Assembly (NCBI RefSeq): GCF_014384905.1
Contig: NZ_JACRSV010000002.1
Span: 585,882-649,881, forward strand
DNA length: 64,000 nt
Source: Fumia xinanensis
Lineage (GTDB): Bacteria > Bacillota > Clostridia > Oscillospirales > Ruminococcaceae
Direction: 5' to 3'
The translations under genes were made by a program, and so were the position numbers. Positions 47,966 to 62,567 of the stretch are shown one piece after another. The notes beneath the pieces are model-generated. The model was not told where the DNA came from. It did no database searches and saw only the letters and a program-made list of their open reading frames with translations. The first letter of the stretch is position 1, and each line of letters begins with the position of its first letter.

Positions 47966-48427
<462 letters not shown>

Positions 48428-48685: not shown

Positions 48686-50275
48686 TTAACGCTCCAGTTC
48701 CTGTTTGCGTTCGATTTTTCTGCCAAGGGTCTGCTCGATATTGTGGCGAATGGTATCAAGCCGCTGTGCTTCGTCTTTGGCGGTCTGATACTGGTTGTAA
48801 AGCTTGTTTTTCTCTTTGATGAGCTGTTCCACTTCCGTCTGCAATGCCTTGTAGCTCGGCAGCTTCTTGAGTCCCTTGGAATCAAAATATCGTTTGGCGG
48901 CGTTCAGAATGATGAAGTCGCTGTCATGCTCGTCACGATATTTCTGACGGGCTTTTTCTTTCTTACAGGCTTTCAGCTCGTCAACCACATATCGTGTTTT
49001 GTGATAGTTCAGCACATAGTCACGGAACTCTTTCTTTTCTGCAATTGTAGCTTCCACTGATTTCATTTCTGTGCGAATATCACTCAGCTTTTCGTGGGCG
49101 GCATCACAGGCGGCAGCCAATGCTTCGGGAGAATCAAATCCCATTTCCTGATACAGCAGATAGGCACGGCTGGCATTTTTGAGATTGTGTTTCTTTGCCC
49201 AATGCTCGTAACCTTTGCCTTTTTCCTTTGCGGCATCAATATCCACCATGCGGCTAACAGTATCACGCTCGTTGATGGTTTTCTGCATAGCGGGTGCAGA
49301 AGGGATGGGGTCGGTTTTTGCCCTCACTCGTTTTGTGTTTCTGACAATAACAGCGAACACAGCCGATCTATCAAAATCGTCACCCAGCTTTCGTGCTGTG
49401 ATGGGCTTGGTGCGGTCGGGTGTGAGATAGGACAAGCGCCCACGGCTCTCTTTGACGGTAATGCCACGGCGGAGAAGTTTTTCTGCGAAGCCCTCAAAGC
49501 TGACAGTATCAGAAAGTGCCATGCGGATTTCTTCACGGAGCTTGTCTTTGTCTGTTTCAAATTTGGTCTGCTTGACGGGTAAGCCCTGTTCGGCAAGAAC
49601 AGCGTTTTCTTCATCCAGCGCAAGCTGTCCTTTCTTCTTCGCCCAATACTCACGCTCGGTCACACGGGTCTTACTGCCGTTCAGCAGATCAATCTGATAC
49701 AGACCCGCATCGTGACACATTTCCATAACCTCGGAGCGAAAATATTCCATAGCTGCGTTGGTGCATCGGTGCTTCATGCCCGGTTGTGTATCGCACGGTC
49801 TGTCCATATATGGCATGAATGGAACTTCTTCAATTCGCAGAGAATTGATCACGATGTGTACATGAACATTGCCGCTGCCGTTGTGTCCGTCGGGGTGAGT
49901 GCAAACAATGGCTTGATGACCCGGAAAGTGTTCCTTGCAGAATTTCTCTCCAAGACTCTGCGCCAGATCTACGGTCAATCCGTGGTCGGGAACATCTTTA
50001 GGGTCAAAAGAAATGATATAGTGATGACTTTTGACATCTTCCCGTTTTTGATTTTTGCCATATCGGAGGTTGGCTCTCAGACAAGCAATCGCAAAATCTT
50101 CGTTACCGCAGTTCAAGGTGGAAATGCGATAATTCTGTCTTGGGATGAGCCTGCCGTTTTCATCCAGGGTGGGCTTCATAGTGAACTCATCATGCTCAAA
50201 AGTGAGGTAAGCTTCAGCGGCAGAGTAGTCGGCATTCTTAGAGCTTATATGCTTGAACGTTGCCAACAGCATCAC
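48686..50275 (-). CDS. MobA/MobL-type relaxase (relaxase/mobilization nuclease domain)
   Basis: HHYIISFDP and HPDGHNGSGNVHVHIVINS (HxDxxxxNxHxHxxxN metal motif); 529 aa with a C-terminal coiled-coil region. Confidence 0.7.
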   Translation of the reverse strand: MMLLATFKHISSKNADYSAAEAYLTFEHDEFTMKPTLDENGRLIPRQNYRISTLNCGNEDFAIACLRANLRYGKNQKREDVKSHHYIISFDPKDVPDHGLTVDLAQSLGEKFCKEHFPGHQAIVCTHPDGHNGSGNVHVHIVINSLRIEEVPFMPYMDRPCDTQPGMKHRCTNAAMEYFRSEVMEMCHDAGLYQIDLLNGSKTRVTEREYWAKKKGQLALDEENAVLAEQGLPVKQTKFETDKDKLREEIRMALSDTVSFEGFAEKLLRRGITVKESRGRLSYLTPDRTKPITARKLGDDFDRSAVFAVIVRNTKRVRAKTDPIPSAPAMQKTINERDTVSRMVDIDAAKEKGKGYEHWAKKHNLKNASRAYLLYQEMGFDSPEALAAACDAAHEKLSDIRTEMKSVEATIAEKKEFRDYVLNYHKTRYVVDELKACKKEKARQKYRDEHDSDFIILNAAKRYFDSKGLKKLPSYKALQTEVEQLIKEKNKLYNQYQTAKDEAQRLDTIRHNIEQTLGRKIERKQELER

Positions 50276-50636
50276 CTACCTTTTTCATCACTTCAAATTT
50301 CAGAGTGGCGAGATCAGAGGCGGCATCTTGCAATTCTTTTGCCATGGACGGATAGGGACTTCGCCATTCGTTGAGGTGTCTGGCAATCTGATTTAGATTG
50401 TTACCGATCCTTCCATATTCAGCGGTTAGCTTGCCGATGGCTGCGAGCAGATCGTCGCTGACCAATGTTGCCACAATGGTTGGACGGATGGTTACACCGG
50501 AGATTGCTTCACGGATAAACTCCGATTGATTCATGTCGTAAATCTCCAAGCGGCGAAGAAAATCTGCGTGTTCTTCATCGTCCAGACGGGTTTTTACGAT
50601 GTGGGTTCGTTTCGGTGTGTTGTAGGTTTTGGCCAT
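50238..50636 (-). CDS. MobC-like relaxosome accessory protein
   Basis: The GRIGNNLNQIARHLN motif characteristic of MobC. The stop overlaps the relaxase start, indicating an operon. Confidence 0.6.
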   Translation of the reverse strand: MAKTYNTPKRTHIVKTRLDDEEHADFLRRLEIYDMNQSEFIREAISGVTIRPTIVATLVSDDLLAAIGKLTAEYGRIGNNLNQIARHLNEWRSPYPSMAKELQDAASDLATLKFEVMKKVGDAVGNVQAYKL

Positions 50637-51221: not shown

Positions 51222-52109
51222 TTAGAACAGAACACTCATTACAAAATAAACTCGCCCTTGTTCATCATCCAAAATTTCATCTACAGCAATCATCTCTAAG
51301 CATTGCATCATATACACCACAGACCATATTTCATCAAACTGAGAAGATAGCTCCATGTGTTGTTGAATCAAATCTTTTGTAATGGTATATGGTGAAAAGT
51401 CAGGAGCACCATATAGATAGTCACCGTTAAGTAATGCTGCTATTTTCTTTGCTAACTTTGAATTTCTTACAGCAGTTTCATAAGAAAAAATCTGTAATGG
51501 TTCACGATTGAATCCATAAATGCTATCGGCTCCAACGGGATCTCCCCAATAAGGAAGTATATATAATTCATAATCATCTTTGTCAATGGGACACCATGAC
51601 TCCATAATTTTATAAAAGCGAATCATGAAATTATGAAGCACACAAAAATCTTCTTCGGACAAAAAGCTGCCTTGACGAATCAAAAAGTGGGTTTCATTAT
51701 TTCTCAGCTTTTGCAACAGCTCAAGTTCTGTTTTTAACGATTCTCCTTGCTCAAGGCTTCTGCCAAATAACTTCTTATGTAATGAAATTAGTTCGTTAAA
51801 TTGAATTGTGTTAAATTTTGAAAGATCTTCATTTGACAGCGTATCAAAAAAACTATTTAAATCCGTTGCCTTGAAATAATCGAATAAGAGTTTTGCATCA
51901 GCTTCATTTTTTGCCTTTCTTACTTCTGCAACCCTGTGATCGTTATTATTCAACAGCATTTGCTTCATAATAAGTTCAACGGCATTATGAAGTGACAATA
52001 CAAAATTTTTCTGATACTGGAGTGTTGCTTTTCCATCTTTTATATCATCACAAAAGCGTATGGCAGCCGCCCAAGCTTCAAAGGCATTTTCCATCAATAC
52101 TGGTTTCAT
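51222..52109 (-). CDS. Hypothetical protein with a HEPN-like RNxxxH motif (possible defense-associated RNase-like protein)
   Basis: A 295-aa, AT-rich ORF. It contains LQKLRNNETHF (Rx4H) within a helical region and lies immediately downstream of the Shedu-like gene. Confidence 0.3.
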   Translation of the reverse strand: MKPVLMENAFEAWAAAIRFCDDIKDGKATLQYQKNFVLSLHNAVELIMKQMLLNNNDHRVAEVRKAKNEADAKLLFDYFKATDLNSFFDTLSNEDLSKFNTIQFNELISLHKKLFGRSLEQGESLKTELELLQKLRNNETHFLIRQGSFLSEEDFCVLHNFMIRFYKIMESWCPIDKDDYELYILPYWGDPVGADSIYGFNREPLQIFSYETAVRNSKLAKKIAALLNGDYLYGAPDFSPYTITKDLIQQHMELSSQFDEIWSVVYMMQCLEMIAVDEILDDEQGRVYFVMSVLF

Positions 52110-52206
52110 ATCTTGCTCCTTGTTCTTTTATCTTCAAAAGACAGGTGCCCATGTCAACAAGAAGCACGTTCATCCTAAACGTTGACATGATCGGTTCACT
52201 TGTTAT

Positions 52207-53010
52207 TTAAAATGATTGAGCTGTTTCTAACTCGCAGGCTTTATCGTACAGATTATCATAATGCAAAGTCAGAATGTTTTGCTGGGTTGCTTTGTTTCGA
52301 CGATCACGATAAGTAGCTTCGTTGTAATCCTCACGCAAGCCTGCGACCACAGCATAGTGAAAACGGCTTGAATCATATTCTGAAAATTCCTTCGGAAGCG
52401 AGGATTTGTTGCTGTACTTGGTGATCGTCACAAACGATGCAGAAAAGTGTGCTTCGATTTCTGCTTTCCAATCATAAATTTGATAAGTACCTTTTCTAAA
52501 GGCTTCTCCCTCGTGTCCAGATTTCAAGGTTGTCCTTCCATTAGGGTGTTCAAGCTCGACAAATACAAACTCATAGCCGCCAGAGCTTTTTCCTATCAAC
52601 AAATAATCAGCAATGTACTTACCTAAAGCAAATTCCGGGAAGACATATGCATCGTGGTGGCCAAAATTATAATACTTAAATACACCAGCAATAATATGAT
52701 AAGCAGGTCTGTGATTAATGAAGCGAAGAACGTCTCTTTCGTTTGTGTTTGCATCATGAATCAAGGCACAAAACTCTTCATTTAGTTGTTCCATATTACC
52801 TTCGTTCTGGAAATCAAACAACTCAATATGATTGTTAGGGAAAAAACTATCATAGTGCCGAACTGCTGCTGGATACAATCGCCTATGATTTATCTTCCCA
52901 AATCTTCTGTCTCCGGCAGCTTCTCTTTCAGTACACAAAATATCCTCATACAGTTGCATCTCCTGTTTGGTAGGAACGCTCTTTATATAGTCTCGTTTAT
53001 ATAAATTCAT
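52207..53010 (-). CDS. DUF4263/Shedu-like (SduA-like) anti-phage nuclease-fold protein
   Basis: ERDVLRFINHRPAYHIIAGVF...HHDAYVFPEFALGKYIADYLLIGKSSGGYEFVFVELEHPNG...YQIYDWKAE matches the recalled DUF4263 pattern (YxFPEFxLG...ADYLL...VELK-like), although ELE replaces ELK. Confidence 0.5.
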   Translation of the reverse strand: MNLYKRDYIKSVPTKQEMQLYEDILCTEREAAGDRRFGKINHRRLYPAAVRHYDSFFPNNHIELFDFQNEGNMEQLNEEFCALIHDANTNERDVLRFINHRPAYHIIAGVFKYYNFGHHDAYVFPEFALGKYIADYLLIGKSSGGYEFVFVELEHPNGRTTLKSGHEGEAFRKGTYQIYDWKAEIEAHFSASFVTITKYSNKSSLPKEFSEYDSSRFHYAVVAGLREDYNEATYRDRRNKATQQNILTLHYDNLYDKACELETAQSF

Positions 53011-53049
53011 AATACTTCCTCATGTTGTAAGAATATGCTGCAATGCTAT

Positions 53050-53262
53050 TCATTGTTCGATTTCTGTAGTGAATTCCAAAATGTCATCGACTCCACAATC
53101 AAGAGTTTTGCAGATCTTCTCGATAGTGTCGAGAGAAATATAATTGTCACGCTTGATGCGTGTAATGATATTAGCACTAAAGCCCGCTTTTTCCATCAGC
53201 TCGGCATTAGTCATACCCTTGTCGATCAGTAAGTGAAATAACTTTTTGTAGGTTACAGCCAT
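53050..53262 (-). CDS. Small XRE/Cro-type HTH regulator preceding the Shedu-like gene (paralog of 59570..59785)
   Basis: MAVTYKKLFHLLIDKGMTNAELMEKAGF...KICKTLDCGVDDILEF; the family signature is shared with the HTH gene upstream of hsdM. Confidence 0.6.
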   Translation of the reverse strand: MAVTYKKLFHLLIDKGMTNAELMEKAGFSANIITRIKRDNYISLDTIEKICKTLDCGVDDILEFTTEIEQ

Positions 53263-53432
53263 GGTAATTCACCTCCTAATATTAACGGTAATTATATCAC
53301 GAAAGCGTGAATAATTCAATTAGTATGATTGACATCGCACGATAATAAAACACTTCTGCCCAAGTTGGTCAGAAGTTGAACAGCTTACCACTTTGCTGAA
53401 CGCAAAGTGGTAAGCTGTTTCATTATCACGTA

Positions 53433-56384
53433 TTATAAACTTGTCTGATTATGGTTTGCTTGATATGTCGAATTAAAAGCACTATCAAACAACCACTTTC
53501 TAAAGGACGGGTTGTTCTGAACTTCTCTAAACAATTCCAGTCCGCTTTGCATACTGTTCATGACCGCTTCATGGGCAGCACGATCACTTTCATCACGGGC
53601 ATTCTGCTTGTCAGAGAATTGCATTGCATTATTGTACTTCTCATCCCTGCGGACACTTTCGATAATATCGTTGATCTGCTTCTTGATTTTGTCTTCATCT
53701 GTCCACTCGATATTGCCGAAGATATCATGGAATTCCTTCAAGATATTTGTGAGCGTATCCAATTCTGGAACATCAATCCCCACACTGGTGCTTACCGGAA
53801 TAGGATCGATTTTGCCGTTTTCGTTCTCGAGCTGAATTCTCATAGTCTGCTGCGCTTCAGCACGGTAACTTTCCAGATCCACATCTTCAAGCAAGCCCTC
53901 GGTGTAATCCTCACCATCCGGTTTAGGCAGCTTGGGCACCAAAAGATTTAGGAAGATGGAGAGCTTTTCCCACTGAACACTGCCATATGGCAAAATCGCA
54001 GAAAGAAAATTATAGGTTCGCACGAAAGTCTTTGCACAACTCTTAAATTCAATCTGATCTTCAATAATCAAACCTTTATAGACTTCGACACAGTGATCCA
54101 GAATGGGGTCAAGGTGCTCACGAGGTCCATTTGCCAAATAACGCTCCACAAAGGTATCAATGTCAGCATCGCTGTAAACCTGAATAGATTCCATAGTATC
54201 AATCAAATCATTCAGCTTATTCACATCGGTCTCACCAGAAAGAATTGTGGTTTTATAATACCTATCAAAGGCTTCTTTGATGACCCCAGGCTCGTTTACA
54301 AAGTCCAGAATAAATGTGTCTTTCTTGTCAGGGTGGCTTCTATTTAGACGGGACAGTGTTTGAACTGCCTTAATATCGGCCAAGCCTTTGTCTACATACA
54401 TAGTGTGCAGCAGCGGTTCATCAAAACCTGTCTGGAATTTGTTTGCGACAATAAGAATGCGATAGGGATCACCCTTAAAGGTTTTTTCGATTTTAGCACT
54501 CGGAAATCCGTTCAAATCCGCTTCTGTAACTTGTCTGCCCTCATACTCGACAGAACCGGAAAAAGCTACAATCGCTTTAAAGGGACTCTTGCGTTCTTCC
54601 AATAGCTTAGAAATCGCTTTGTAATATTCGATGGCACGTTTAATGGAACTGGTGATAACCATGGCTCTGGCCTTACCGCCGACTTTTCCTTTGGCAATCA
54701 CTTCTGTATGGAAATGCTCAACCATAATGTTAGCCTTTTCGTGGATAGCGTACTGATTGGATTCCACATAGTAACGAAGCAATCGCTGTGCTCGTTTCTT
54801 GTCAAACTGCGGATCGTCCTCAATAGTTTTCGCCAATTTATAATAACTTTGCACTGGCGTAAAATAACGCAGTACATCCATGATAAAGCCTTCTTCGATA
54901 GCCTGCTTCATGGTATAAACATAGTGCGGTTCCGGCTTTGTTGTTCCATCGGGCAACCGCTTTTTCTTACCGAACATTTCCAACGTCTTATTCTTCGGTG
55001 TTGCGGTAAACGCAAAATAGCTTGCGTTCTTTACCATCTTGCGCCCCTCGATGATTGTATTGATCTTGTCTTCAAGATCATCTTCATCCTCATAGACGCT
55101 ACCAGAAAGCACCATGTTCATCTTTGCAGACAGACTGCCGTTCTGGCTGGAATGGGCTTCGTCAATCAGAATGGCAAAGTTTTTATCCTTATGTACCTCG
55201 CCAATATCATCCAAAATGAACTGGAACTTATGGACGATGGTAATAATGATTTTCTTACCTTCGTTCAGGAGCTGCTTCAGCTCACCGGCACTTTTCGCCC
55301 AACCAACTGTTGCAGATACCTGCATAAACTGTTTGATGGTGTCTTTGATCTGCTTGTCCAAATTGATACGGTCAGTCACAACGATAACCGTGTCAAAAAT
55401 CTCTTTGCCGCTGTCATTTTTCAGTGTGACGAGCTGATGTGCCAGCCATGCGATGGAATTAGACTTACCGGAACCTGCGCTGTGCTGAATCAGATAGCGT
55501 CCGCCCACACCGTCACGCTTTGCATCACTAAGCAGGGATTCCACCACAGAAAGCTGATGATAACGAGGGAACACCTGCTTATATTTTGTAACCCCGGTGT
55601 CTTCGTCTTTCTCAGAAATCACCTGAGCATAGTTTTCAATGATATTGGATAGTTCATCCTTGGTCAGAATCTCTTTCCAAAGATAATCCGTTTTGATTCC
55701 ATTGGGATTCGGAGGATTGCCAGCACCATCATTGAATCCCTTGTTAAACGGCAGGAACCAGGATTTCTTGCCCTTCAGTTCCGTACACATTCTTACTTCG
55801 TTATCATCAACGGCAAAGTGAACGATGCATCGTTTGAAGCTGAACAAAACCTCATCCGGAGTGCGATCATTCTTGTACTGTTCAACTGCATCGGAAACGT
55901 TTTGCTTGGTAAGCTGGTTTTTCAGCTCCATGGTGATTACTGGCAGACCGTTGATGAAGATACAGACATCCAGTGCCAAACGAGGGTTGAAGCTGGAATA
56001 CTGTAGCTGTCTGGTCACGCTGAAAATATTCTTTTCATATAATTCTGCGGCTTCTGGATTGTGAACAGAGGGGCGCACATAGAACAGATCCAAGCGCAGA
56101 TGCTTGTAGCGCATACCTTTGCGGAGCAGCTCTATGACACCATCGCTTTTCAGCTTCTTGTCCAACTGCTTGAAGAAACGATCTTTTTCCAGATCACTGT
56201 CCAGAATGTGCAGCTCATCCATTGCTTTCTTCTGAGTAGACAGCAGAAAACGGAAGAGTCTGTCCTCATCGATGGCATATTGCTTGTTGTACTCAGTTGT
56301 GACACCTTGTTCATAGCCATTGCTATTTACCAAAGTATCCACAATCAAGGTTTCAAAACCATTTTCCTTTGTATTACTCGGCAT
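53433..56384 (-). CDS. hsdR: Type I restriction enzyme R subunit (HsdR)
   Basis: HsdR N-terminal block (ELKNQLTKQNVSDAVEQYKND), a DEAD-box helicase motif (ILIDEAHSSQNG), and a length of about 980 aa. The start is placed at MPSNTK, which has a GGAGG RBS; a longer ORF-track start at 56420 would overlap hsdS. Confidence 0.8.
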   Translation of the reverse strand: MPSNTKENGFETLIVDTLVNSNGYEQGVTTEYNKQYAIDEDRLFRFLLSTQKKAMDELHILDSDLEKDRFFKQLDKKLKSDGVIELLRKGMRYKHLRLDLFYVRPSVHNPEAAELYEKNIFSVTRQLQYSSFNPRLALDVCIFINGLPVITMELKNQLTKQNVSDAVEQYKNDRTPDEVLFSFKRCIVHFAVDDNEVRMCTELKGKKSWFLPFNKGFNDGAGNPPNPNGIKTDYLWKEILTKDELSNIIENYAQVISEKDEDTGVTKYKQVFPRYHQLSVVESLLSDAKRDGVGGRYLIQHSAGSGKSNSIAWLAHQLVTLKNDSGKEIFDTVIVVTDRINLDKQIKDTIKQFMQVSATVGWAKSAGELKQLLNEGKKIIITIVHKFQFILDDIGEVHKDKNFAILIDEAHSSQNGSLSAKMNMVLSGSVYEDEDDLEDKINTIIEGRKMVKNASYFAFTATPKNKTLEMFGKKKRLPDGTTKPEPHYVYTMKQAIEEGFIMDVLRYFTPVQSYYKLAKTIEDDPQFDKKRAQRLLRYYVESNQYAIHEKANIMVEHFHTEVIAKGKVGGKARAMVITSSIKRAIEYYKAISKLLEERKSPFKAIVAFSGSVEYEGRQVTEADLNGFPSAKIEKTFKGDPYRILIVANKFQTGFDEPLLHTMYVDKGLADIKAVQTLSRLNRSHPDKKDTFILDFVNEPGVIKEAFDRYYKTTILSGETDVNKLNDLIDTMESIQVYSDADIDTFVERYLANGPREHLDPILDHCVEVYKGLIIEDQIEFKSCAKTFVRTYNFLSAILPYGSVQWEKLSIFLNLLVPKLPKPDGEDYTEGLLEDVDLESYRAEAQQTMRIQLENENGKIDPIPVSTSVGIDVPELDTLTNILKEFHDIFGNIEWTDEDKIKKQINDIIESVRRDEKYNNAMQFSDKQNARDESDRAAHEAVMNSMQSGLELFREVQNNPSFRKWLFDSAFNSTYQANHNQTSL

Positions 56385-57741
56385 CCTCTGCCACCTCCTC
56401 CACATCTTCACCGGTATCATCGGTGTCGATTTCCGTATCTTCCTCTGGCGTGTATTCCGGGATAACTACATCACGAACATCAATCTGTCCCGTCACAACA
56501 TCAGAGATCAATCTGGTTCGGTATTCTCTAAGATACTCAATATGTTTTTCAACTTCTTTTTTGAGCAAGTCAATCTTTTCTGTCTCTTGCTCAATGTATT
56601 CAACAATTTCACGTTGTTCTTCAATCGGAGGAACAGGAATATCATAATTCTTAAAATTTATTGCAGGCATACGCCATCTTCCTTTATTGGCTGCACCACG
56701 TCCCAGTCCGTAGAAGATTTTACGCTTGTATCCCAACTGGAATACATATAAGAAGTATTTCAAATCGGTTCTTTCAACATCAATTGCAGAAAATACTCGA
56801 TAGTCTGGACTTGTAACCCCAAAAAAGTCAGAAAGCCCAATAAAACCGGTTAGCAAGTCCATGTGATTCATTGCATAATCGCCAGGATATACAAACTGGT
56901 ATTTCGAGTAATTGGCAGCCATTTGGCCTTCATTAGAGGCAATGTCTTTTACTTTTAAACCCTGCTGCGTAATAGATATTACATCGTAGCCTTCTTTACC
57001 AGCAATTCGCTTCTTAATTTCAAAATGCTGCTTAACTTTGTTGAATTGCCAATGTGCAGGAATTTCTTTAACCCAGTTTGCTTCAACAGCTTGCATTTCA
57101 ACATCAGCATGAATGCCACGTGTGACAGCCTGATTTATTACTGTTGTTTTTCTTTCGTCCAGTAAATTAATCTGCTTCTGATAACCATGAATCAAATGAT
57201 TGATTTTGGAAACTTGCCAATCAAGGTATCGGACAATCTGATCCTGCTCATCTCGTGGAGGAACAAGAACACTTGCACATTTCAACTCCTGCCAATATAG
57301 GTTTCTTTGAATGGAACCAACGCCTTTTGACCTAACCAAGTATTGATCTACCATAATGGCACTCCTGAATAGGTAATTTGCATATTCCGTAGTCAATTGA
57401 TCATTCATAGACAGAACAATATATGCAGGGCTTGTAATACCGGTATGTTTTGATACACCAACAGAACCTCTCCATGCTTGCTGATTATTTAATACAAAAT
57501 CACCCGGATCAACTCGCTGATATTTGGAAAGATCCTTACTTGTTGCGTTGGTTCTCTTTTCGGTTCTTTTTGAGAAAGGAACTACACCGGCATCCAAATA
57601 TACAGATAACAGTTCCAACTCGGTACAATTACATATCGATTTCTCCTTGGCTATAGAATACAATGGAAAAACTTCCCAATGCTTTGGAAATGTCATATTC
57701 CATAGTGGCTGTACAGCCTTGTACGCTTCGTATCTTTTCAT
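56374..57741 (-). CDS. hsdS: Type I restriction-modification specificity subunit (HsdS) with two target-recognition domains
   Basis: Two repeated TRD halves separated by conserved helical spacers; the position between hsdM and hsdR is typical. Confidence 0.7.
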   Translation of the reverse strand: MKRYEAYKAVQPLWNMTFPKHWEVFPLYSIAKEKSICNCTELELLSVYLDAGVVPFSKRTEKRTNATSKDLSKYQRVDPGDFVLNNQQAWRGSVGVSKHTGITSPAYIVLSMNDQLTTEYANYLFRSAIMVDQYLVRSKGVGSIQRNLYWQELKCASVLVPPRDEQDQIVRYLDWQVSKINHLIHGYQKQINLLDERKTTVINQAVTRGIHADVEMQAVEANWVKEIPAHWQFNKVKQHFEIKKRIAGKEGYDVISITQQGLKVKDIASNEGQMAANYSKYQFVYPGDYAMNHMDLLTGFIGLSDFFGVTSPDYRVFSAIDVERTDLKYFLYVFQLGYKRKIFYGLGRGAANKGRWRMPAINFKNYDIPVPPIEEQREIVEYIEQETEKIDLLKKEVEKHIEYLREYRTRLISDVVTGQIDVRDVVIPEYTPEEDTEIDTDDTGEDVEEVAEDAE

Positions 57742-57743
57742 AA

Positions 57744-59570
57744 TCAGCCCCCTAAGATTTCATCCAGAAGACCGTCGGTTTCTTTTTCGATAGCACGAAT
57801 ATCCCTTGCAATTTCTTCTAACGTACGCAACTGAATCGGTTTATAGAAATACTTCGTAAAGGAAAGCTCATAGCCCACTTTCTCTGTACCCGGTTTAATA
57901 AACACATCAGGGGCATACGGTTTCACTTCTTTTTCGATAAATGCTTCGATACCACCTTTATAGGTAAACGGTACGATTTCTTTATCAGAGTTCGGCTTTA
58001 TAGGCTTGCCCTTCTTATCCAGAATAGGCTGACCGTTTTCATCATACTGCGGTGTGTAGACCGGAATTTCCCAATATCCAAATTCAGAATTATTAAACAC
58101 CTTGCTGTAACGTTCATCTGCTTGGTCAAATGCCATGTACAATTCCAGAATATAATCTCTAATATCCTTATCGATTTCACAGTTCTTTTCTCCAAGGTTC
58201 TTGCGAAGAGGTTTTTTGAAGGAAGTAGCATCAATGAGTTGTACCTTTCCTTTGCGGCGTTTCTCCTTCTTGTTGGCAAGAATCCAGATGTAGGTACCAA
58301 TTCCTGTGTTGTAGAACATTTTTTCAGGAACTGCGACAATGGCTTCCAGCAAATCCTGCTCCAGAACATACTGACGCAGATTGGAGGGACCCTGACCTGC
58401 TTTGCCGGTAAACAGAGAAGATCCGTTGTGTACCTCCACAATACGACTGCCAAGAGCAGTATTCTTCTTCATCTTGCTAATGTTATTGGCAAGGAACAAC
58501 ATCTGCGGATCACCAATGTCCGGAATCAGAGAGAAATCTTCATCCTTATAGTTCACACGGAAACGGGTGTCGGTAATCTCATCCTTCTTAATGTCGCCCC
58601 ATGCCTTCAGATCTGTTTTCCAAGGTGTGCCGAAAGGCGGGTTGGAAAGCATAAAGTCAAAGGTTTCTCCAGCGAATCCATCATTGGAAATGGTGGAGCC
58701 AAAGAAAATGTTGTTTGCCTGTACGCCTTCGCCCTTAACCAGCATGTCACTGCGAGCGATAGCATAGGTTTCGTCGGAGTTCTCCTGGCCGTACAAATGG
58801 ATCGAAACATTCTTTCCGAATTCCTTAGCCACTTCTTGCATTCGACCTTCGGCAACCGTCAGCATACCGCCTGTGCCACAGGCTCCGTCATAGATACGGT
58901 AAGTTGTACTCTGAATTTTGTCTTTCACGGGCACAAACGCCAGATCAGTAATCAGCTCCACGATGTCACGAGGGGTAAAGTGACGTCCTGCATCAGTAAT
59001 GTTGGTTTCCTCATTAAACTTACGGATGACCTCTTCAAACACTGTTCCCATAGTGTGATTGTCCAGTGCGGGCTGCACAAGATTACCCTTGGCATCATAA
59101 ATCGGGCGATTAGACAGGTTCACAGAGGAATCCGTAAACTTGCTGATCAGCAGGCCCAGAATGTCATGCTCAGAGAGTTTGTCAATCTGATTTCTGAATT
59201 CAAAGCGCTTGATAATATCCTGCACATTCTGAGAAAAACCGTTCAGGTAAAGGATAAAGTCGGATTTCAGCTGTTGCTGATTAGTACGGGATTTCAGATC
59301 TGACAGGGTATAGGGGGAACTATTACAAAAAGCTTCTCCCGCTACGCTGCACAGGGCTTCGTCCTGATCGGTAATACCAGCAGCATCCAGCTGCTCCTTC
59401 ATTTTCAAAACTTTCTCCTTAGTGGGTTCCAAAACCGCATCAAAACGGCGGATAACCATCATAGGCAGAATAATCTTTCTGTAGTCGCCTACATCATATG
59501 TATCTACGAGACAGTCATTTGCGATTCCAAACAAAAAGGAAACGATCTGACCAAAGTTTGCTTTTTCCAT
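57744..59570 (-). CDS. hsdM: Type I restriction-modification N6-adenine DNA methyltransferase subunit (HsdM)
   Basis: The NPPF motif in LSNPPFGTPWK, an AdoMet-binding region (YDGACGTGGML), and an HsdM-type N-terminal domain. Confidence 0.8.
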   Translation of the reverse strand: MEKANFGQIVSFLFGIANDCLVDTYDVGDYRKIILPMMVIRRFDAVLEPTKEKVLKMKEQLDAAGITDQDEALCSVAGEAFCNSSPYTLSDLKSRTNQQQLKSDFILYLNGFSQNVQDIIKRFEFRNQIDKLSEHDILGLLISKFTDSSVNLSNRPIYDAKGNLVQPALDNHTMGTVFEEVIRKFNEETNITDAGRHFTPRDIVELITDLAFVPVKDKIQSTTYRIYDGACGTGGMLTVAEGRMQEVAKEFGKNVSIHLYGQENSDETYAIARSDMLVKGEGVQANNIFFGSTISNDGFAGETFDFMLSNPPFGTPWKTDLKAWGDIKKDEITDTRFRVNYKDEDFSLIPDIGDPQMLFLANNISKMKKNTALGSRIVEVHNGSSLFTGKAGQGPSNLRQYVLEQDLLEAIVAVPEKMFYNTGIGTYIWILANKKEKRRKGKVQLIDATSFKKPLRKNLGEKNCEIDKDIRDYILELYMAFDQADERYSKVFNNSEFGYWEIPVYTPQYDENGQPILDKKGKPIKPNSDKEIVPFTYKGGIEAFIEKEVKPYAPDVFIKPGTEKVGYELSFTKYFYKPIQLRTLEEIARDIRAIEKETDGLLDEILGG

Positions 59571-59785
59571 TATTGTTCTGTCCTTTCATTCGTAAGTTCC
59601 ATAATATCGGAGATGTCGCACTTCAGAGTGTTGCAGATTTTCACAAGCACCTCAGTGTTGACATTTTCATTCTTACCAAGTTTCGCAAGTGCTGCGGTTG
59701 TAATTCCAGCTTCTTTACGAAGCATCGTTTTCGTCATATCCATGTCAATCAACAGTTTCCAGAGCTTCTTATAGGATACAGCCAT
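59570..59785 (-). CDS. Small XRE/Cro-type HTH regulator, first gene of the hsdMSR operon (paralog of 53050..53262)
   Basis: MAVSYKKLWKLLIDMDMTKTMLRKEAGI...KICNTLKCDISDIMEL; the stop overlaps the hsdM start codon. Confidence 0.55.
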   Translation of the reverse strand: MAVSYKKLWKLLIDMDMTKTMLRKEAGITTAALAKLGKNENVNTEVLVKICNTLKCDISDIMELTNERTEQ

Positions 59786-59988
59786 GCTTATCTCCCTTCC
59801 TATATAAATCAAATATCTAAAAATTAGATTTCTGGTTCAATTATATAACAAGATATCAAGAAATGAAAGTGGCGAAGCAGTCTTTTGAAAAATTTCTCAA
59901 AAAATGTGGTTGACTTTCTCGGCACCACTGCGTATAATAGTGTTAGGAATTAGCGAACACGCTTATTCCTGTCAAGGAGGAAAGGACT

Positions 59989-60366
59989 ATGAACGGCAAG
60001 TTCGGAGAATTCATCGCTGAAAAGCGAAAATCCCGTGGACTGACACTACGTGGACTGGCTGCCGAATTAGGGATTGTACCGGCATACATGAGCGACATTG
60101 AAAAGGGGAATCGCTATCCCCCTGACAAAGACAAGCTGTATGAATTGGCCCGTATTCTGTGCCTGTCCGAAGAAGAAACCAACACCATGTTTGATCTGGC
60201 CGCAGGCGAAAAGGAGAATACGGTATCTCCTGATCTGCCGGAGTACATCATGGGGAATGAGCATGTCCGTGTTGCGCTTCGTATGGCACGTGACAACAAT
60301 GCCTCCAGTGAAGTATGGCAGAAGGTCATTGAGATGATGGAGGAACAAGAGCGAGGTAAGAAATAA
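59989..60366 (+). CDS. XRE-family HTH transcriptional regulator (ImmR/CapH-like)
   Basis: HTH segment RKSRGLTLRGLAAELGIVPAYMSDIEKGNRYP; it is divergent from the hsdM operon and followed by a metallopeptidase gene. Confidence 0.6.
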   Translation: MNGKFGEFIAEKRKSRGLTLRGLAAELGIVPAYMSDIEKGNRYPPDKDKLYELARILCLSEEETNTMFDLAAGEKENTVSPDLPEYIMGNEHVRVALRMARDNNASSEVWQKVIEMMEEQERGKK

Positions 60367-60368
60367 GC

Positions 60369-61067
60369 GTGATCCATTACAACTATTCTGCGCATCAGTT
60401 GGAAAAAGAGGCGGAAAAGCTTCTGAACCAATTTGACCCTGAACGACTAAAAAAGCCGAAGCCCATCGACGTCTACGCCGTCATTGAAAAGTGCTTGGGT
60501 GTTGACTATGACTGGAAGTATATCACCCCAGATCAGTCTATTCTCGGCGCAACCGCCTTCAATGCTGGCTATGTGTGGGTGTGGCCCGAACCCTGTTATC
60601 GAGAGGGCATGCTTCCTTCAAAGGTTTATCTTTCCAAGGGGAGTATTCTCATTGATGCAACGCTGACTGAGGGGGATAATAGAGGGCGTGAAAACTTCAC
60701 TGTGATGCACGAAGTGTTTCACCAAGTTCTGCACAAGAACTGTTTCCGTCGTGAAACGCCCGACTATATTCACAGCACGACGCAAATAGCCTTGAATGGG
60801 AAGAAAAGTCTGAAAACGTCGCTGGATTTCATCGAGTATCAGGCGAATGCGTGTGCAGCGGCGTTCTTGATGCCGCAGAATGTGGTTCGAGACGAGTTCA
60901 AAAAGCGAAGCAGCAACTTAGGCGCAAAATACCCCCTTCCGTGCGACTGCATGGTAGAGAGCATTATCTATGACATGGCGGATGAATTCAGCGTATCTAA
61001 ACAGGCTATGCGCTATCGCTTGAACTCGCTGAAGATGATCACATTTGATGCCCCCCTATTCAACTAA
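60369..61067 (+). CDS. ImmA/IrrE-family metallopeptidase (HEXXH; ImmA/CapP-like)
   Basis: HEVFH zinc-binding motif in a DUF955-like context; translationally coupled to the upstream XRE gene. Confidence 0.6.
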   Translation: MIHYNYSAHQLEKEAEKLLNQFDPERLKKPKPIDVYAVIEKCLGVDYDWKYITPDQSILGATAFNAGYVWVWPEPCYREGMLPSKVYLSKGSILIDATLTEGDNRGRENFTVMHEVFHQVLHKNCFRRETPDYIHSTTQIALNGKKSLKTSLDFIEYQANACAAAFLMPQNVVRDEFKKRSSNLGAKYPLPCDCMVESIIYDMADEFSVSKQAMRYRLNSLKMITFDAPLFN

Positions 61068-61285
61068 AAATCTCAATTTAAGGGAATCTTCCGATTCCCT
61101 TAAATGCAAGCCGAGTGTTAGAAAGAAGCGAACAGGCGAATATGCGAACATTAAAGGAGGTGATGCCTTATGCGCAAATAAAAAGAGCGGCAATCTGCTG
61201 CAACAGATTAACCGCTCATTCAAGATGTACACGTTACTAAAATATCACGACTGGCTTGTTCCGTCAAGCCGAAAGGAGTCAAATT

Positions 61286-61501
61286 ATGTATAAACACTAC
61301 TATATCAACAACAATCAGACCTTGAATCCTGGACATCATCATGAAGTCCACACCAAGGAGCACGCAGCTCAGCTTGGCATCCGCAGCACGCAGTATGTTG
61401 GCTATTTTGCAAGCGAAGTGGAAGCTGTTGCTCAGGCAAAGAAAACCTATTTTGATGCGGACGGCTGTGCAACCTGCTGTCCGAAAGCACACAGGGGGTA
61501 A
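61286..61501 (+). CDS. Small His/Cys-containing hypothetical protein
   Basis: MYKHYYINNNQTLNPGHHHEVHTKEH...CATCCPKAH; AAAGGAG RBS. Confidence 0.35.
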   Translation: MYKHYYINNNQTLNPGHHHEVHTKEHAAQLGIRSTQYVGYFASEVEAVAQAKKTYFDADGCATCCPKAHRG

Positions 61502-61506
61502 TTAAT

Positions 61507-61734
61507 ATGGCACGTTCTTCTCATCATGTTGTTCACAATTCCAACGGAGGTTGGGATGTTAAGCGTAGCGGCGCTCAGCGCTCCAGCGGCCATTTTACAA
61601 CCAAGGAACAGGCCGTAAACGCAGGAAGACAAATCAGCCGAAATCAGGGCACCGAATTCGTTGTTCATGGTATGAACGGACGCATCCAGTCCGCAGACAG
61701 CCATGGGAACGATCCTTGCCCGCCGAAGGGTTAA
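61507..61734 (+). CDS. DUF2188-like small protein
   Basis: HVVHNSNGGWDVKRSGAQRSSGHFTTKEQAVNAGRQI...VVHGMNGRIQ pattern. Confidence 0.4.
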   Translation: MARSSHHVVHNSNGGWDVKRSGAQRSSGHFTTKEQAVNAGRQISRNQGTEFVVHGMNGRIQSADSHGNDPCPPKG

Positions 61735-61752
61735 TTTAGGGAGGTGAATATC

Positions 61753-61878
61753 ATGTCTGTACATCATGGTGGTAAGGTTGGTAAAGCCGGTAAGACCTTG
61801 GCGTCTAAAAGTTCTTCTAAGTCTGCGAAGAGCAAAGCCGGGAAGACTCTGGCCAACCACAAAGCGAAAGCGCATTAA
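61753..61878 (+). CDS. Lys-rich 41-aa peptide (MSVHHGGKVGKAGKTLASKSSSKSAKSKAGKTLANHKAKAH)
   Basis: A strong GGGAGGTG RBS sits 8 nt upstream, and a strong terminator follows immediately. It is absent from the ORF track because it is shorter than 60 aa. Confidence 0.4.
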   Translation: MSVHHGGKVGKAGKTLASKSSSKSAKSKAGKTLANHKAKAH

Positions 61879-61916
61879 AGGACAGGTGCCTATGCTGCCG
61901 CATAGGCACCTGTTTT
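61879..61916 (+). terminator. Rho-independent terminator
   Basis: caggtgcctatg-ctgc-cgcataggcacctg followed by tttt. Confidence 0.75.
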
Positions 61917-61929: not shown

Positions 61930-62193
61930 TTATTCTTCCATGACCTCTAACATCATTCGTGCGCCTAACTTAAAGCCATTCTGAAAGATCAAACAGTCTG
62001 TATTGGTTTGATGCTCTCGCACACAATCTGTGTATTTATCAAACAGTTCTTTCTGTTCGTCCGTCATAGTGGCTTTGAGTTTTTCTTCGTTCCTGCAAAT
62101 CAGCTCCAACAGTTTCTTGTATTCTTTGCAAGAGGATGTGTCATACTCTGTTGGCTCGATATTACCATGCCAAAATTCTTCAAGGATTCTCAT
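61930..62193 (-). CDS. Small hypothetical protein (partner of TnpV-like gene)
   Basis: An 87-aa ORF whose start overlaps the stop of the upstream TnpV-like gene. Confidence 0.35.
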   Translation of the reverse strand: MRILEEFWHGNIEPTEYDTSSCKEYKKLLELICRNEEKLKATMTDEQKELFDKYTDCVREHQTNTDCLIFQNGFKLGARMMLEVMEE

Positions 62194-62567
62194 ACTGCAT
62201 CCTCCTCGTAGATCATCTCACGCAGAACAATTTCCTCGGCTCGGTTGCGGATGCTGTTCATAGCTCCAACCCACGCCATCTGATCATGCTGCTTCGTGCT
62301 CTCTGTCACGCCCTCAGCGGCTTTCATTTGCTCAATGATGAGTTCAAGACGGCTCTGTGCCTGCTCGTTTAAATCAGCCAGATAAGACCACAGCTCACCG
62401 TTAAGACACAGAGCGTTGAAACGGATAGGATTATGCTCCTTGATATAATCTCTGTGCATACGCCCCCAACGACCAATAGGTCTGGTTTCCTCTGGTAAGC
62501 GAATATCAGGAATATAGTAATCGCCACAGCGAATGTAGTTTAGTTCTTGCATCATATGTACCTCCAA
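62190..62567 (-). CDS. TnpV-like transposon-encoded small protein
   Basis: The YIRCGDYYIPDIRLPEE...GRWGRMHRDYIKEH...QMAWVGAMNSIRNRAEEIV pattern resembles the recalled Clostridial TnpV proteins (YTQVGDYLLPxLxLPEE...NNIRNRAxEIV). Confidence 0.45.
   Translation of the reverse strand: MEVHMMQELNYIRCGDYYIPDIRLPEETRPIGRWGRMHRDYIKEHNPIRFNALCLNGELWSYLADLNEQAQSRLELIIEQMKAAEGVTESTKQHDQMAWVGAMNSIRNRAEEIVLREMIYEEDAV

What the first reader, a model, noticed from the sequence alone, without database searches (positions are those of the whole stretch)
51222..61067. Defense island on the outer element: Shedu-like + HEPN-like genes and a Type I R-M operon, each headed by a paralogous mini-HTH, with a divergent XRE/ImmA (CapH/CapP-like) pair
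The island contains a complete hsdM-hsdS-hsdR operon, a DUF4263/Shedu-like gene and a 295-aa gene with an RNxxxH HEPN-like motif. The R-M operon is headed by one 70-aa HTH paralog (59570..59785) and the Shedu-like gene by the other (53050..53262). They share MAV(S/T)YKKL..LLID and KIC.TL.C...DI.E blocks, suggesting a dedicated controller-like regulator class shared between unrelated defense systems.

Divergently upstream lies an XRE + HEXXH ImmA-like pair. That is the architecture of both ICE ImmR/ImmA and the CapH/CapP DNA-damage-responsive regulators of defense systems. The Shedu-like protein has ELE where the canonical ELK nuclease triad would be.
Basis: partly seen in the sequence, partly recalled or inferred. 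Interest (0 to 1): 0.7.

Follow-up and report, generated by a model that had tools for sequence, protein, structure and literature searches.

The report
Regulated defence cargo on mobilisable transposon
A gut-Clostridia mobile element carries a Type I restriction-modification operon and a Shedu nuclease plus HEPN gene, each led by a small repressor of an R-M-controller-like family, and the R-M operon also carries a repressor/protease switch; the parts are known kinds in an undescribed combination.

Summary

The two mini-HTHs are 40% identical members of a large HTH_26 family. They have different candidate operators.

HTH-G and the divergent XRE/M78 pair co-diverge with hsdM across 80 related loci (r 0.78 to 0.85). 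The pair occurs in three layouts and carries a conserved 17-bp operator. It therefore belongs to the R-M module and not to the element backbone. The M78 protein lacks CapP's GAF domain.

HTH-C is a backbone "cargo-head" gene with a conserved promoter-operator, TTCAC-N5-CGTGATATAAT. Its relatives head Type II, IIG-like and III R-M genes and an unannotated NERD module. It heads Shedu only in near-identical copies.

Verdict: a real and largely correctly read island. Each part is a known kind in a new combination. Interest is moderate.

The parts
51222..52109 (-). p295: HEPN-fold protein (N-terminal ~175 aa) with a C-terminal alpha/beta domain; putative RNase effector
52207..53010 (-). SduA: short (Type 2-like) Shedu nuclease with an E-x-E active-site variant
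53050..53262 (-). HTH-C: 70-aa HTH_26 repressor, the backbone 'cargo-head' gene
   Evidence: Pfam HTH_26 5e-18. NCBIfam VanU 5e-12, below cutoff. Proteins 89-93% identical head a different module in many contigs. In L033 it lies directly next to DUF6809.
53291..53319 (-). HTH-C promoter TTGAAT-17-TATAAT (TG-extended), with candidate operator TTCACGCTTTCGTGA (53297-53311) in the spacer
   Evidence: Promoter scan 10/12. Operator match. The unit TTCAC-N5-CGTGATA(T/C)(A/T)AT is kept upstream of HTH-C relatives while the flanks diverge.
53379..53419 (-). 18-bp perfect hairpin between the hsdR stop and the HTH-C promoter (terminator-like, no T tract)
   Evidence: Inverted repeat, 100% complementary, 5-nt loop; sequence.
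53433..56420 (-). hsdR, Type I restriction subunit
   Evidence: Pfam HSDR_N, SWI2_SNF2/ResIII and T1R_D3-like. PADLOC REase_I 8e-43.
56374..57741 (-). hsdS, specificity subunit
   Evidence: Pfam Methylase_S, two matched stretches. PADLOC Specificity_I 6e-122. Only 71% identical in L002 while its neighbours are 94-97% identical.
57744..59570 (-). hsdM, Type I methyltransferase
   Evidence: Pfam HsdM_N plus N6_Mtase. PADLOC MTase_I 1e-212.
59570..59785 (-). HTH-G: 71-aa HTH_26 repressor, first gene of the R-M operon; its stop codon overlaps the hsdM start codon by one base
   Evidence: Pfam HTH_26 2e-17. NCBIfam VanU 1e-23, below cutoff. An HTH-G-like gene lies directly upstream of hsdM in 46 of 80 related loci. 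In the 45 with a full-length alignment its identity tracks hsdM identity (r 0.85).
59815..59829 (.). Inverted repeat ATCTAA-N3-TTAGAT, 11 nt downstream of a TATAAT box (59840-59845); candidate HTH-G operator
   Evidence: Kept in L056 and L063. Replaced by other AT-rich inverted repeats at the same position in more distant orthologs.
59910..59958 (+). XRE promoter TTGACT-17-TATAAT (59910-59938), followed by the conserved operator GTTAGGAATTAGCGAAC (59942-59958)
   Evidence: Promoter scan 11/12. The motif GTTCGCnAnTTnCTAAC occurs exactly in 56 of 139 fetched loci; in the loci checked it sits next to the XRE gene.
59989..60366 (+). XRE-family repressor (CapH-like)
   Evidence: Pfam HTH_31 and HTH_3. 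PADLOC capH 4.6e-11, covering model positions 3-96 of 103. Identity co-varies with hsdM (r 0.83, n 58).
60369..61067 (+). M78 (ImmA/IrrE-type) Zn-metallopeptidase with an HEVFH motif; no GAF domain
   Evidence: Pfam Peptidase_M78 4e-8, residues 102-219. PADLOC capP 1.2e-13, but only model positions 51-152 of 242 are matched. Identity co-varies with hsdM (r 0.78, n 52).
61117..61133 (-). Second copy of the XRE operator (1 mismatch), between the M78 stop and the p71/DUF2188 genes
   Evidence: Extra copies at the equivalent place in L070 and L072.
61286..61734 (+). p71 (61286-61501) and a DUF2188 protein (61507-61734), co-directional with XRE-M78
   Evidence: Pfam DUF2188 9.5e-21. phrog_4298 for p71. 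Both are present wherever the HTH-G form of the module has enough upstream DNA.
61930..62567 (-). DUF6809 and TnpV: element backbone bordering the cargo region
   Evidence: Pfam DUF6809 1e-26 and TnpV 1e-44. 90% DNA identity to L033-type elements, in which these genes abut HTH-C.
48686..50636 (-). MobC/NikA-like protein and relaxase: element backbone on the other side of the cargo
   Evidence: Pfam NikA-like, MobC and Relaxase.

Best explanation
The region is the accessory (cargo) segment of a mobilisable transposon. Its backbone carries TnpV, DUF6809, MobC, a relaxase and a large serine recombinase, and its close relatives are in gut Clostridia. The cargo consists of two separately acquired and separately regulated defence modules.

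Module 1 is an 8.6-kb block at about 53337-61947. It is a complete Type I R-M operon, HTH-G-hsdM-hsdS-hsdR, with a divergent XRE-M78-p71-DUF2188 unit.
- Inferred: HTH-G, whose stop codon overlaps the hsdM start, binds the inverted repeat just downstream of the -10 box and negatively autoregulates the operon. This would make it a C-protein or HsdC-like governor, useful when the element enters an unmethylated host.
- Inferred: the XRE repressor sits on a conserved 17-bp operator immediately after its own -10 box, with a second copy before p71/DUF2188. It is removed by the M78 peptidase on a stress signal, as in ImmR/ImmA and CapH/CapP.
- Whether XRE also gates the R-M promoter is not shown.

Module 2 starts after a hairpin downstream of hsdR. 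HTH-C has its own promoter, with the operator TTCAC-N5-CGTGA in the spacer.
- Inferred: HTH-C is autorepressed and drives SduA and probably p295. SduA is a short Shedu PD-(D/E)xK nuclease with an E-x-E motif III, as in BamHI. p295 is a stand-alone HEPN putative RNase.
- Shown: HTH-C with its promoter-operator is a conserved, portable 'head' behind which different cargos are found. These include a BanI-like REase, Type III Mod genes, MmeI-type and D12 methyltransferases, a NERD module, and here Shedu plus HEPN.
For: - Gene identities.
- Insertion logic: in L033-type elements, window 61948-62702 and window 53063-53336 are contiguous, so 53337-61947 is an extra block. L001 carries only HTH-C-SduA-p295.
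- R-M regulators belong to the R-M operon. Among 80 hsdM relatives at 61-99% identity: 34 have HTH plus a divergent XRE (M78 seen in 31; upstream DNA too short in 3); 23 have a divergent XRE without HTH (M78 seen in 21); 3 have a co-directional XRE-M78-hsdM operon; 12 have HTH only.
- Identities of HTH-G, XRE and M78 co-vary with hsdM identity: r 0.85, 0.83 and 0.78.
- The operator GTTCGCnAnTTnCTAAC is exact in 56 loci.
- The HTH-C promoter-operator is conserved across relatives 56-94% identical while the flanks differ. Their downstream genes are R-M genes.
- Shedu fold and HEPN fold.
- Precedents: VanU_G is a negative autoregulator that binds inverted repeats spanning its promoter (PMC4405338). 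HsdC heads Type I hsd operons in Mollicutes and binds GTGTTA/GTGATA repeats overlapping the -10 box (PMC5282649). CapH/CapP sit upstream of, and opposite to, defence operons (bioRxiv 10.1101/2022.04.27.489752).
Against: - No binding, transcription or phage-resistance data exist; every regulatory step is inferred from position and conservation.
- The XRE operator overlaps only the XRE promoter. It lies about 100 bp from the best -10 box of the R-M operon, so direct control of the R-M operon is unproven.
- The HTH-G promoter has a perfect -10 box but a poor -35 box. It may need activation and not only repression.
- The HTH-G operator sequence is not conserved in more distant orthologs.
- HTH-C precedes Shedu only in near-identical copies, so its control of SduA could be an accident of cargo replacement.
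- In L001 the conserved promoter is absent.
- SduA lacks the motif III lysine.
Confidence: 0.68

Rival explanations
1. The mini-HTHs are generic mobile-element or cargo regulators with no special tie to defence. HTH-C is a backbone regulator of the transposon that may also control its recombinase, and it merely happens to sit in front of Shedu here.
For: - Proteins 89-93% identical to HTH-C head a 141aa-170aa(HTH_3)-NERD module that has no PADLOC hit, indexed in 206 and 128 blocks of the contig collection.
- The nearest named family is VanU, a vancomycin-resistance regulator (PMC4405338).
- A look-alike promoter-operator sits upstream of the element's serine recombinase at 48375-48389.
- SduA homologs at 39-82% identity lack any such HTH.
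Against: - Within the HTH-C clade that carries the conserved operator, the downstream genes are a BanI-like REase, Type III Mod genes, and D12 and MmeI-type methyltransferases.
- Across the wider sample, about 29 of 45 downstream genes are R-M or BREX components (approximate sum of family counts).
- HTH-G co-diverges with hsdM.
- The recombinase-site match is within chance for the short pattern alone: 5 found against 3.6 expected.
Confidence: 0.2
2. The XRE/M78 pair is the element's own ImmR/ImmA-type immunity switch. It would control excision or transfer of the transposon, not the defence genes.
For: The gene pair and domain content are the same as ImmR/ImmA. The M78 protein is short and lacks GAF, like ImmA. 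It lies on a mobile element.
Against: - Elements with a 90% identical TnpV/DUF6809 backbone lack the pair together with the R-M operon.
- The pair stays with hsdM in three different layouts, including an XRE-M78-hsdM operon, and in the flanks inspected at L093, L115 and L119 no TnpV or DUF6809 was detected.
- It co-diverges with hsdM.
- It is not adjacent to the recombinase or the relaxase.
Confidence: 0.08
3. XRE-M78-p71-DUF2188 is a self-contained unit, either a CapH/CapP-regulated DUF2188 operon or a Rosmer-like toxin-antitoxin. It is only a neighbour of the R-M operon and does not regulate it.
For: - A second operator copy lies directly upstream of p71/DUF2188.
- Lau et al. list DUF2188 operons among CapH/CapP partners (bioRxiv 10.1101/2022.04.27.489752).
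- The M78 protein hits PADLOC RmrA models and NCBIfam spr1629 repressor/antitoxin weakly.
- The main operator is about 100 bp from the R-M -10 box.
Against: About 23 loci keep XRE/M78 divergent from hsdM without p71/DUF2188. Three loci fuse XRE-M78-hsdM into one operon.
Confidence: 0.15
4. The Shedu-like protein is catalytically inactive or has a non-nuclease role, because the motif III lysine is replaced by glutamate.
For: E154 stands where B. cereus Shedu has K266 (bioRxiv 10.1101/2023.08.10.552793). No Pfam DUF4263 hit at E<0.1 for this sequence. No sequence match to solved Shedu structures.
Against: E-x-E is invariant in 34 homologs at 45-87% identity, together with E91, D135 and Q177. That pattern indicates purifying selection on an active site, not decay. 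From my own knowledge, not tested here: BamHI is an active PD-(D/E)xK enzyme with E-x-E. The fold is closest to Shedu.
Confidence: 0.1

Closest known systems
Shedu (SduA; B. cereus 8ti8/8ti9, E. coli 8ps4); Type 2 (nuclease-only) Shedu of Gu et al.
   Same: PADLOC SduA profile and PD-(D/E)xK fold closest to solved Shedu structures. Motifs I (E91), II (D135), III first residue (E152) and IV (Q177) are present. It sits beside or inside R-M systems, as Gu et al. found for 602 of 5,499 Shedu genes. It is short, with no large N-terminal sensor domain.
   Different: Motif III is E-x-E instead of E-x-K, and this is invariant in the subfamily. Sequence is too divergent for a PDB sequence match or a Pfam hit at E<0.1. 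Here it is preceded by a C-like mini-HTH and followed by a HEPN gene.
R-M controller (C) proteins, especially HsdC of Mollicutes (Fisunov 2017, PMC5282649)
   Same: Small XRE-type HTH encoded immediately upstream of, and co-oriented with, R-M genes, including Type I hsdMSR. Candidate operators overlap or follow the -10 box of its own promoter. HsdC sites of the GTGATATAAT type resemble the HTH-C site CGTGATATAAT.
   Different: There is no canonical GACT C-box. PADLOC control-protein models match HTH-C only weakly (2e-4) and do not match HTH-G. Homology to HsdC could not be tested because no HsdC sequence was at hand. HTH-C here heads Shedu, not an R-M operon.
VanU_G (PMC4405338)
   Same: It is the best named profile for both mini-HTHs (NCBIfam VanU: 1e-23 for HTH-G, 5e-12 for HTH-C). 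It is a 75-aa Xre-type negative autoregulator that binds inverted repeats across its own promoter, and it is the first gene of an accessory operon.
   Different: Scores are below the equivalog cutoff (83 and 46 bits against 150). VanU controls vancomycin-resistance genes, not defence genes.
CapH/CapP (Lau 2022; bioRxiv 10.64898/2026.05.16.725639) and ImmR/ImmA
   Same: An HTH repressor plus an M78 Zn-peptidase, encoded upstream of and opposite to a defence operon. PADLOC capH 4.6e-11 (near full length) and capP 1.2e-13. The association with DUF2188 genes was noted by Lau et al.
   Different: The M78 protein is 232 aa with the peptidase domain in its C-terminal half. It has no HTH-GAF half, so the ssDNA groove of CapP/IrrE is absent and the layout is ImmA-like. 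The partner is a Type I R-M operon, a partner not listed in the papers read. The operon additionally has its own C-like HTH.
RptR (PMC12255303)
   Same: A small repressor heading a Type I R-M operon that has another defence system embedded in or attached to it.
   Different: RptR is a bZIP-like, non-HTH protein of Gammaproteobacteria. It is an analogue, not a homolog.
HEPN toxins and Abi HEPN proteins (8xdj, 5yep, 7ae2; AbiA HEPN domain 8oz7)
   Different: No Pfam HEPN family match. There is an extra ~120-aa C-terminal domain of unknown fold class. No MNT-type antitoxin partner is adjacent.

Membership tests
Shedu (SduA/DUF4263) | Match to SduA/DUF4263 sequence profiles | tested here: met
   PADLOC PDLC00386 E 4e-106 over the full length, plus 8 other SduA models. 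Homologs at 46-87% identity carry precomputed PF14082 and the NCBI Shedu name. My own Pfam scan gave no PF14082 hit at E<0.1.
Shedu (SduA/DUF4263) | PD-(D/E)xK nuclease fold closest to solved Shedu | tested here: met
Shedu (SduA/DUF4263) | Catalytic motifs I (E), II (D), III (E-x-K) and IV (Q) | tested here: not met
   E91, D135, E152 and Q177 are invariant, but the motif III lysine is E154 in all 34 aligned homologs. Residue correspondence is by motif order, not by structural superposition.
Shedu (SduA/DUF4263) | Protects against phage through nuclease activity | not testable with these tools
   Needs phage challenge and nuclease assays.
Type I restriction-modification | HsdM (HsdM_N + N6_Mtase), HsdS (two target-recognition domains) and HsdR (nuclease N-domain + SF2 motor) in one operon | tested here: met
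   The NPPF motif in HsdM, DEAH in HsdR and D...ELK in the HsdR N-domain can be read directly in the translations.
HEPN | HEPN helical fold | tested here: met
HEPN | Conserved Rx4-6H motif | tested here: met
   R136-N-N-E-T-H141. R136, N137, E139 and H141 are invariant in 34 homologs.
HEPN | Match to a curated HEPN sequence family | tested here: not met
   No HEPN Pfam or NCBIfam hit. Only DUF3644 at 1.6e-3, below cutoff, and PADLOC candidate PDC-S19 at 1.9e-7.
R-M controller (C) protein | Small HTH gene directly upstream of and co-oriented with R-M genes, conserved across relatives | tested here: met
   HTH-G-like gene upstream of hsdM in 46 of 80 loci; identity correlates with hsdM, r 0.85 over 45 loci. 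HTH-C clade sits upstream of a BanI-like REase, Type III Mod, and D12 and MmeI-type methyltransferases.
R-M controller (C) protein | C-box operator in its own promoter | tested here: inconclusive
   Inverted repeats sit at the promoters. The HTH-C repeat is conserved. Neither is a GACT-type C-box, and the HTH-G repeat is not conserved in distant orthologs.
R-M controller (C) protein | Match to known C-protein profiles | tested here: inconclusive
   PADLOC Control_protein: HTH-C 2e-4 and 1e-2; HTH-G has no hit.
CapH/CapP | HTH repressor plus M78 peptidase pair, upstream of and on the opposite strand to a defence operon | tested here: met
   Kept in 57 of 80 related loci in the divergent layout.
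CapH/CapP | CapP architecture: peptidase - HTH - GAF (ssDNA-binding groove) | tested here: not met
   The protein is 232 aa and the M78 domain spans residues 102-219. Only capP model positions 51-152 of 242 are matched. CapP domains are as described in bioRxiv 10.64898/2026.05.16.725639. No structure prediction was made for this protein.
CapH/CapP | Signal-dependent cleavage of the repressor and derepression of the operon | not testable with these tools
   Needs biochemistry and reporter assays.
ICE/prophage ImmR/ImmA | Controls the element's own excision or transfer genes; part of the element backbone | tested here: not met
   Absent from L033-type elements with the same backbone. Travels and co-diverges with hsdM.
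VanU (NCBIfam NF000090) | Score above the equivalog cutoff | tested here: not met
   83.3 bits (HTH-G) and 45.8 bits (HTH-C) against a cutoff of 150.

The most novel reading that the evidence does not exclude
The mini-HTH with its promoter-operator (TTGAnn...TTCAC-N5-CGTGATATAAT) is a portable, self-limiting expression 'head'. Behind it, defence cargos such as R-M genes of several types, Shedu plus HEPN, and NERD modules are swapped by recombination at the 3' end of the HTH gene. That would make it a docking and regulation cassette for defence genes on Clostridial mobile elements. A whole clade of gut Type I R-M systems would in addition be placed under a stress-responsive XRE/M78 switch, giving two-tier control of restriction.
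Probability: 0.3. Interest if true: 0.55.

Novelty: new variant of a known kind. Interest (0 to 1): 0.4.

Why it matters
Regulation of defence systems is much less understood than their mechanisms. This locus, with the 80 or so related loci gathered here, offers three testable cases.

First, a Type I R-M clade common in human-gut metagenomes is linked over evolutionary time to an ImmR/ImmA- or CapH/CapP-type switch and also to a C-like autoregulator. Each has a clear candidate operator.

Second, a small-HTH family heads Type I, II, IIG-like and III R-M genes, BREX and Shedu genes. This would extend the C-protein concept beyond Type II R-M.

Third, a Shedu subfamily has an invariant E-x-E active site.

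None of these overturns current views. They would add Gram-positive examples to a literature dominated by Proteobacteria.

Tried and rejected
- A megablast search of the island against PLSDB plasmids found nothing.
- Rfam at gathering thresholds found no RNA family in the window.
- A profile search of the SduA alignment against PDB sequences found no Shedu entry. Fold comparison was needed instead.
I rebuilt the alignment from database hits.
- The afdb50 fold library was unavailable, so the C-terminal domain of p295 stays unassigned.
- Shared operator for the two mini-HTHs: rejected. The TTCAC-N5-CGTGA site occurs at HTH-C and near the recombinase, but not at HTH-G. ATCTAA-N3-TTAGAT occurs once only.
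- p295 as an obligate Shedu partner: rejected. Homologs sit in other contexts, although L022-24 keep a 150-bp remnant of the SduA 3' end.
- HTH-C as a conserved Shedu regulator: rejected.
- RptR as a homolog of HTH-G: rejected. RptR is bZIP-like and not an HTH protein.
- PHROGs, NCBIfam and PADLOC gave no function for the 141aa-170aa-NERD module that HTH-C relatives usually head.

Full report
**1. What is there**

Read along the minus strand, the order is:
- HTH-G (59570-59785)
- hsdM (57744-59570)
- hsdS (56374-57741)
- hsdR (53433-56420)
- HTH-C (53050-53262)
- a 267-aa gene (52207-53010)
- a 295-aa gene (51222-52109)

An XRE gene (59989-60366) and an M78 peptidase gene (60369-61067) are divergent from HTH-G. 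They are followed by a 71-aa gene and a DUF2188 gene.

G+C drops to 0.37-0.45 over the island, against 0.47-0.59 elsewhere. The island lies between TnpV/DUF6809 (61930-62567) and MobC/relaxase (48686-50636). It is therefore the cargo segment of a mobilisable transposon. The layout resembles the Tn4451 family; that comparison comes from my own knowledge and was not tested.

**2. The defence genes**

*Type I R-M.* HsdM, HsdS and HsdR have the expected Pfam domains and strong PADLOC Type I hits. The NPPF, DEAH and D...ELK motifs can be read directly in the translations.

*The 267-aa protein.*
- It matches PADLOC SduA model PDLC00386 end to end (E 4e-106) and eight other SduA models.
- Most of its database homologs carry PF14082 and the NCBI Shedu name. 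My own Pfam scan gave no hit at E<0.1, and a profile search of PDB sequences found nothing.
- Gu et al. (bioRxiv 10.1101/2023.08.10.552793) define motifs I E204, II D249, III E264/K266 and IV Q295. Here E91, D135, E152 and Q177 are invariant, but the lysine position is E154 in all 34 aligned homologs.
- An invariant E-x-E points to a selected variant active site, not decay. BamHI is a known active E-x-E enzyme; that is my own knowledge.
- The protein is short, so it resembles the nuclease-only "Type 2" Shedu of Gu et al. They also report 602 of 5,499 Shedu genes inside R-M systems. In L013 a homolog sits between hsdS and hsdR.

*The 295-aa protein.*
- It has no curated family.
- R136, N137, E139 and H141 are invariant.
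- Homologs occur in other contexts without Shedu, so it is a stand-alone gene. One set (L022-24) still carries about 150 bp of the SduA 3' end upstream.

**3. The two mini-HTHs**

They are 40% identical. Both are HTH_26 proteins. Their best named profile is VanU, below cutoff in both cases. The family is very large: at least 7,987 hits among the 8,000 candidates scored.

*HTH-G is tied to the R-M operon.*
- Among 80 metagenomic loci whose hsdM is 61-99% identical to the window's, an HTH-G-like gene lies directly upstream of hsdM in 46. Its stop codon usually overlaps the hsdM start.
- Its identity to the window protein tracks hsdM identity (r 0.85, n 45, range 41-99%).
- Its candidate operator is ATCTAA-N3-TTAGAT (59815-59829), 11 nt after a TATAAT box.
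- Close orthologs keep this repeat. Distant ones have other AT-rich inverted repeats at the same place.

*HTH-C is different.*
- SduA homologs at 39-82% identity never have such an HTH upstream.
- Only the near-identical copies in L001 (Ruminococcus sp.) and L002 (Lacrimispora sp.) do.
- Proteins 89-93% identical to HTH-C are indexed in 206 and 128 blocks of the contig collection. In all 18 places shown they head a 141aa-170aa(HTH_3)-NERD module, after either TnpV-DUF6809 or a relaxase. That module has no PADLOC hit.
- DNA comparison shows that in those elements the DUF6809 gene and the HTH-C promoter are contiguous. Window 53337-61947 (the R-M operon, HTH-G, XRE, M78, p71 and DUF2188) is therefore an 8.6-kb extra block, and HTH-C is a backbone gene at the head of the variable cargo.

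*The HTH-C promoter-operator.*
- The promoter is TTGAAT-17-TATAAT with an extended TG. It contains TTCACGCTTTCGTGA in its spacer.
- The unit TTCAC-N5-CGTGATA(T/C)(A/T)AT is conserved upstream of HTH-C relatives 56-94% identical, while the surrounding DNA is unrelated.
- In those relatives the next gene is a BanI-like REase, a Type III Mod, a D12 methyltransferase or an MmeI-type methyltransferase.
- In a wider IMG/VR sample of 45 distinct downstream genes, Pfam family matches were: 8 HsdM, 6 N6_N4 methyltransferases, 4 C5 methyltransferases, 4 EcoRI-type methyltransferases, 2 BrxA, and single or double cases of other R-M families. Summing these suggests about 29 of the 45 are R-M or BREX components; this is an approximate sum of family counts, not a per-gene tally.

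*Published precedents.*
- HsdC of Mollicutes is a small C-protein heading Type I hsd operons and Type II methyltransferases. Its sites, such as GTGATATAAT, overlap the -10 box (PMC5282649; also noted in the review PMC12707154).
- VanU_G is a negative autoregulator binding inverted repeats in its own promoter (PMC4405338).
- RptR is a functional analogue but is bZIP-like, not an HTH protein (PMC12255303).

The mini-HTHs therefore belong to a controller-like family that is strongly but not exclusively R-M-associated. They do not share an operator. The Shedu link is recent.

**4. The XRE/M78 pair**

- PADLOC scores capH at 4.6e-11 (nearly full model) and capP at 1.2e-13.
- The pair occurs in 60 of the 80 hsdM-related loci, in three layouts: divergent with HTH-G (34), divergent without HTH-G (23), and co-directional as an XRE-M78-hsdM operon (3).
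- Identities co-vary with hsdM: r 0.83 for XRE and r 0.78 for M78.
- A 17-bp motif, GTTCGCnAnTTnCTAAC, occurs exactly in 56 of the 139 loci held. In the loci checked it lies next to XRE.
- In the window the motif lies 3 nt after the -10 box of the XRE promoter (59942-59958). A one-mismatch copy lies before p71/DUF2188 (61117-61133).
- Elements with the same backbone but no R-M operon lack the pair. This argues against an element-level ImmR/ImmA role.
- CapP is peptidase-HTH-GAF (bioRxiv 10.64898/2026.05.16.725639). This 232-aa protein has its M78 domain at residues 102-219, and only capP model positions 51-152 of 242 are matched. It works like CapH/CapP or ImmR/ImmA but does not meet the CapP architecture.
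- The operator overlaps the XRE promoter. It is about 100 bp from the best R-M -10 box, so direct control of hsdMSR is inferred, not shown.
- Lau et al. list CBASS, DISARM and DUF2188/DUF3892 operons as partners (bioRxiv 10.1101/2022.04.27.489752). Later work adds Pycsar, BREX and Bub (PMC13373217). I did not find Type I R-M listed in the passages I read.

**5. Mechanism proposed (inferred)**

There are two independent modules.
- *R-M module.* HTH-G autorepresses the operon it heads, as a C/HsdC-like governor. XRE autorepresses and is removed by M78 on a stress signal. This derepresses at least XRE-M78 and p71-DUF2188, and possibly a second, upstream R-M promoter.
- *Shedu module.* After a hairpin downstream of hsdR (53379-53419), the HTH-C promoter, with its operator in the spacer, drives HTH-C, SduA and probably p295. 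A weak TTGACA-containing promoter lies in the 97-bp gap before p295.

**6. Novelty and verdict**

Every component is a known kind. Three things are new in degree:
- the dual regulation of a common gut Type I R-M clade;
- the conserved HTH-C promoter-operator "head" with exchangeable cargo, here Shedu plus HEPN;
- the E-x-E Shedu subfamily.

I rate this a new variant of known kinds, with moderate interest (0.4).

Noticed in passing
window 39937-48313: The outer element's large serine recombinase gene is split. The N-terminal part lies at 48313-48014 (-) and the C-terminal part at 41265-39937 (-). The intervening 41242-48012 (6.8 kb, with its own recombinase-like ORF at 41293-42804) is absent in L133, which joins the two halves directly.
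   Followed up: partly
window 48375-48389 (-): A look-alike of the HTH-C promoter-operator (GTGGAT-tta-TTCACGAATGTGTGATATGAT) sits about 60 bp upstream of the recombinase start. It could mean that HTH-C also controls the recombinase. The short pattern alone is within chance: 5 found against 3.6 expected.
   Followed up: partly
window 51141-51169 (-): A perfect sigma-70 consensus, TTGACA-17-TATAAT, lies just downstream of p295 with no convincing ORF behind it. The region lies between p295 and mobC and may contain oriT or a small RNA.
   Followed up: no
L013:3842-11935: In a Clostridiales MAG, a SduA homolog (42% identity) sits between hsdS and hsdR of a related Type I R-M operon.
   Followed up: no
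L062, L084, L133: These are deletion variants of the same element. The R-M operon is truncated after hsdM or part of hsdS and joined directly to mobC/relaxase, so hsdR, HTH-C, Shedu and p295 are lost.
   Followed up: partly
window 56374-57741; L002:3256-4617: hsdS is only 71% identical between the window and L002 while flanking genes are 94-97% identical. hsdS scores vary widely among the 80 loci, consistent with swapping of target-recognition domains.
   Followed up: no
L079, L082, L107, L108: In these relatives the hsdM ORF is 856 aa and there is no separate hsdS (an M-S fusion or an assembly frameshift). hsdR is again followed by an HTH-C-like gene.
   Followed up: no
L117:3744-3956: An hsdM relative at 63% identity is headed by a different 70-aa HTH that phmmer with HTH-G does not detect. 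This suggests that different small HTH genes have been recruited to the same position.
   Followed up: no
L022-L024:5748-6000: p295 homologs (83% aa identity) that lack Shedu still carry about 150 bp homologous to the 3' end of SduA upstream. This looks like a remnant of a former SduA-p295 pair.
   Followed up: no
L119:2690-2900: In the co-directional XRE-M78-hsdM layout, the conserved XRE operator is about 140 bp upstream of XRE and in the opposite orientation relative to XRE. It faces what may be a divergent minus-strand gene, which suggests an inversion of the XRE-M78 segment.
   Followed up: no
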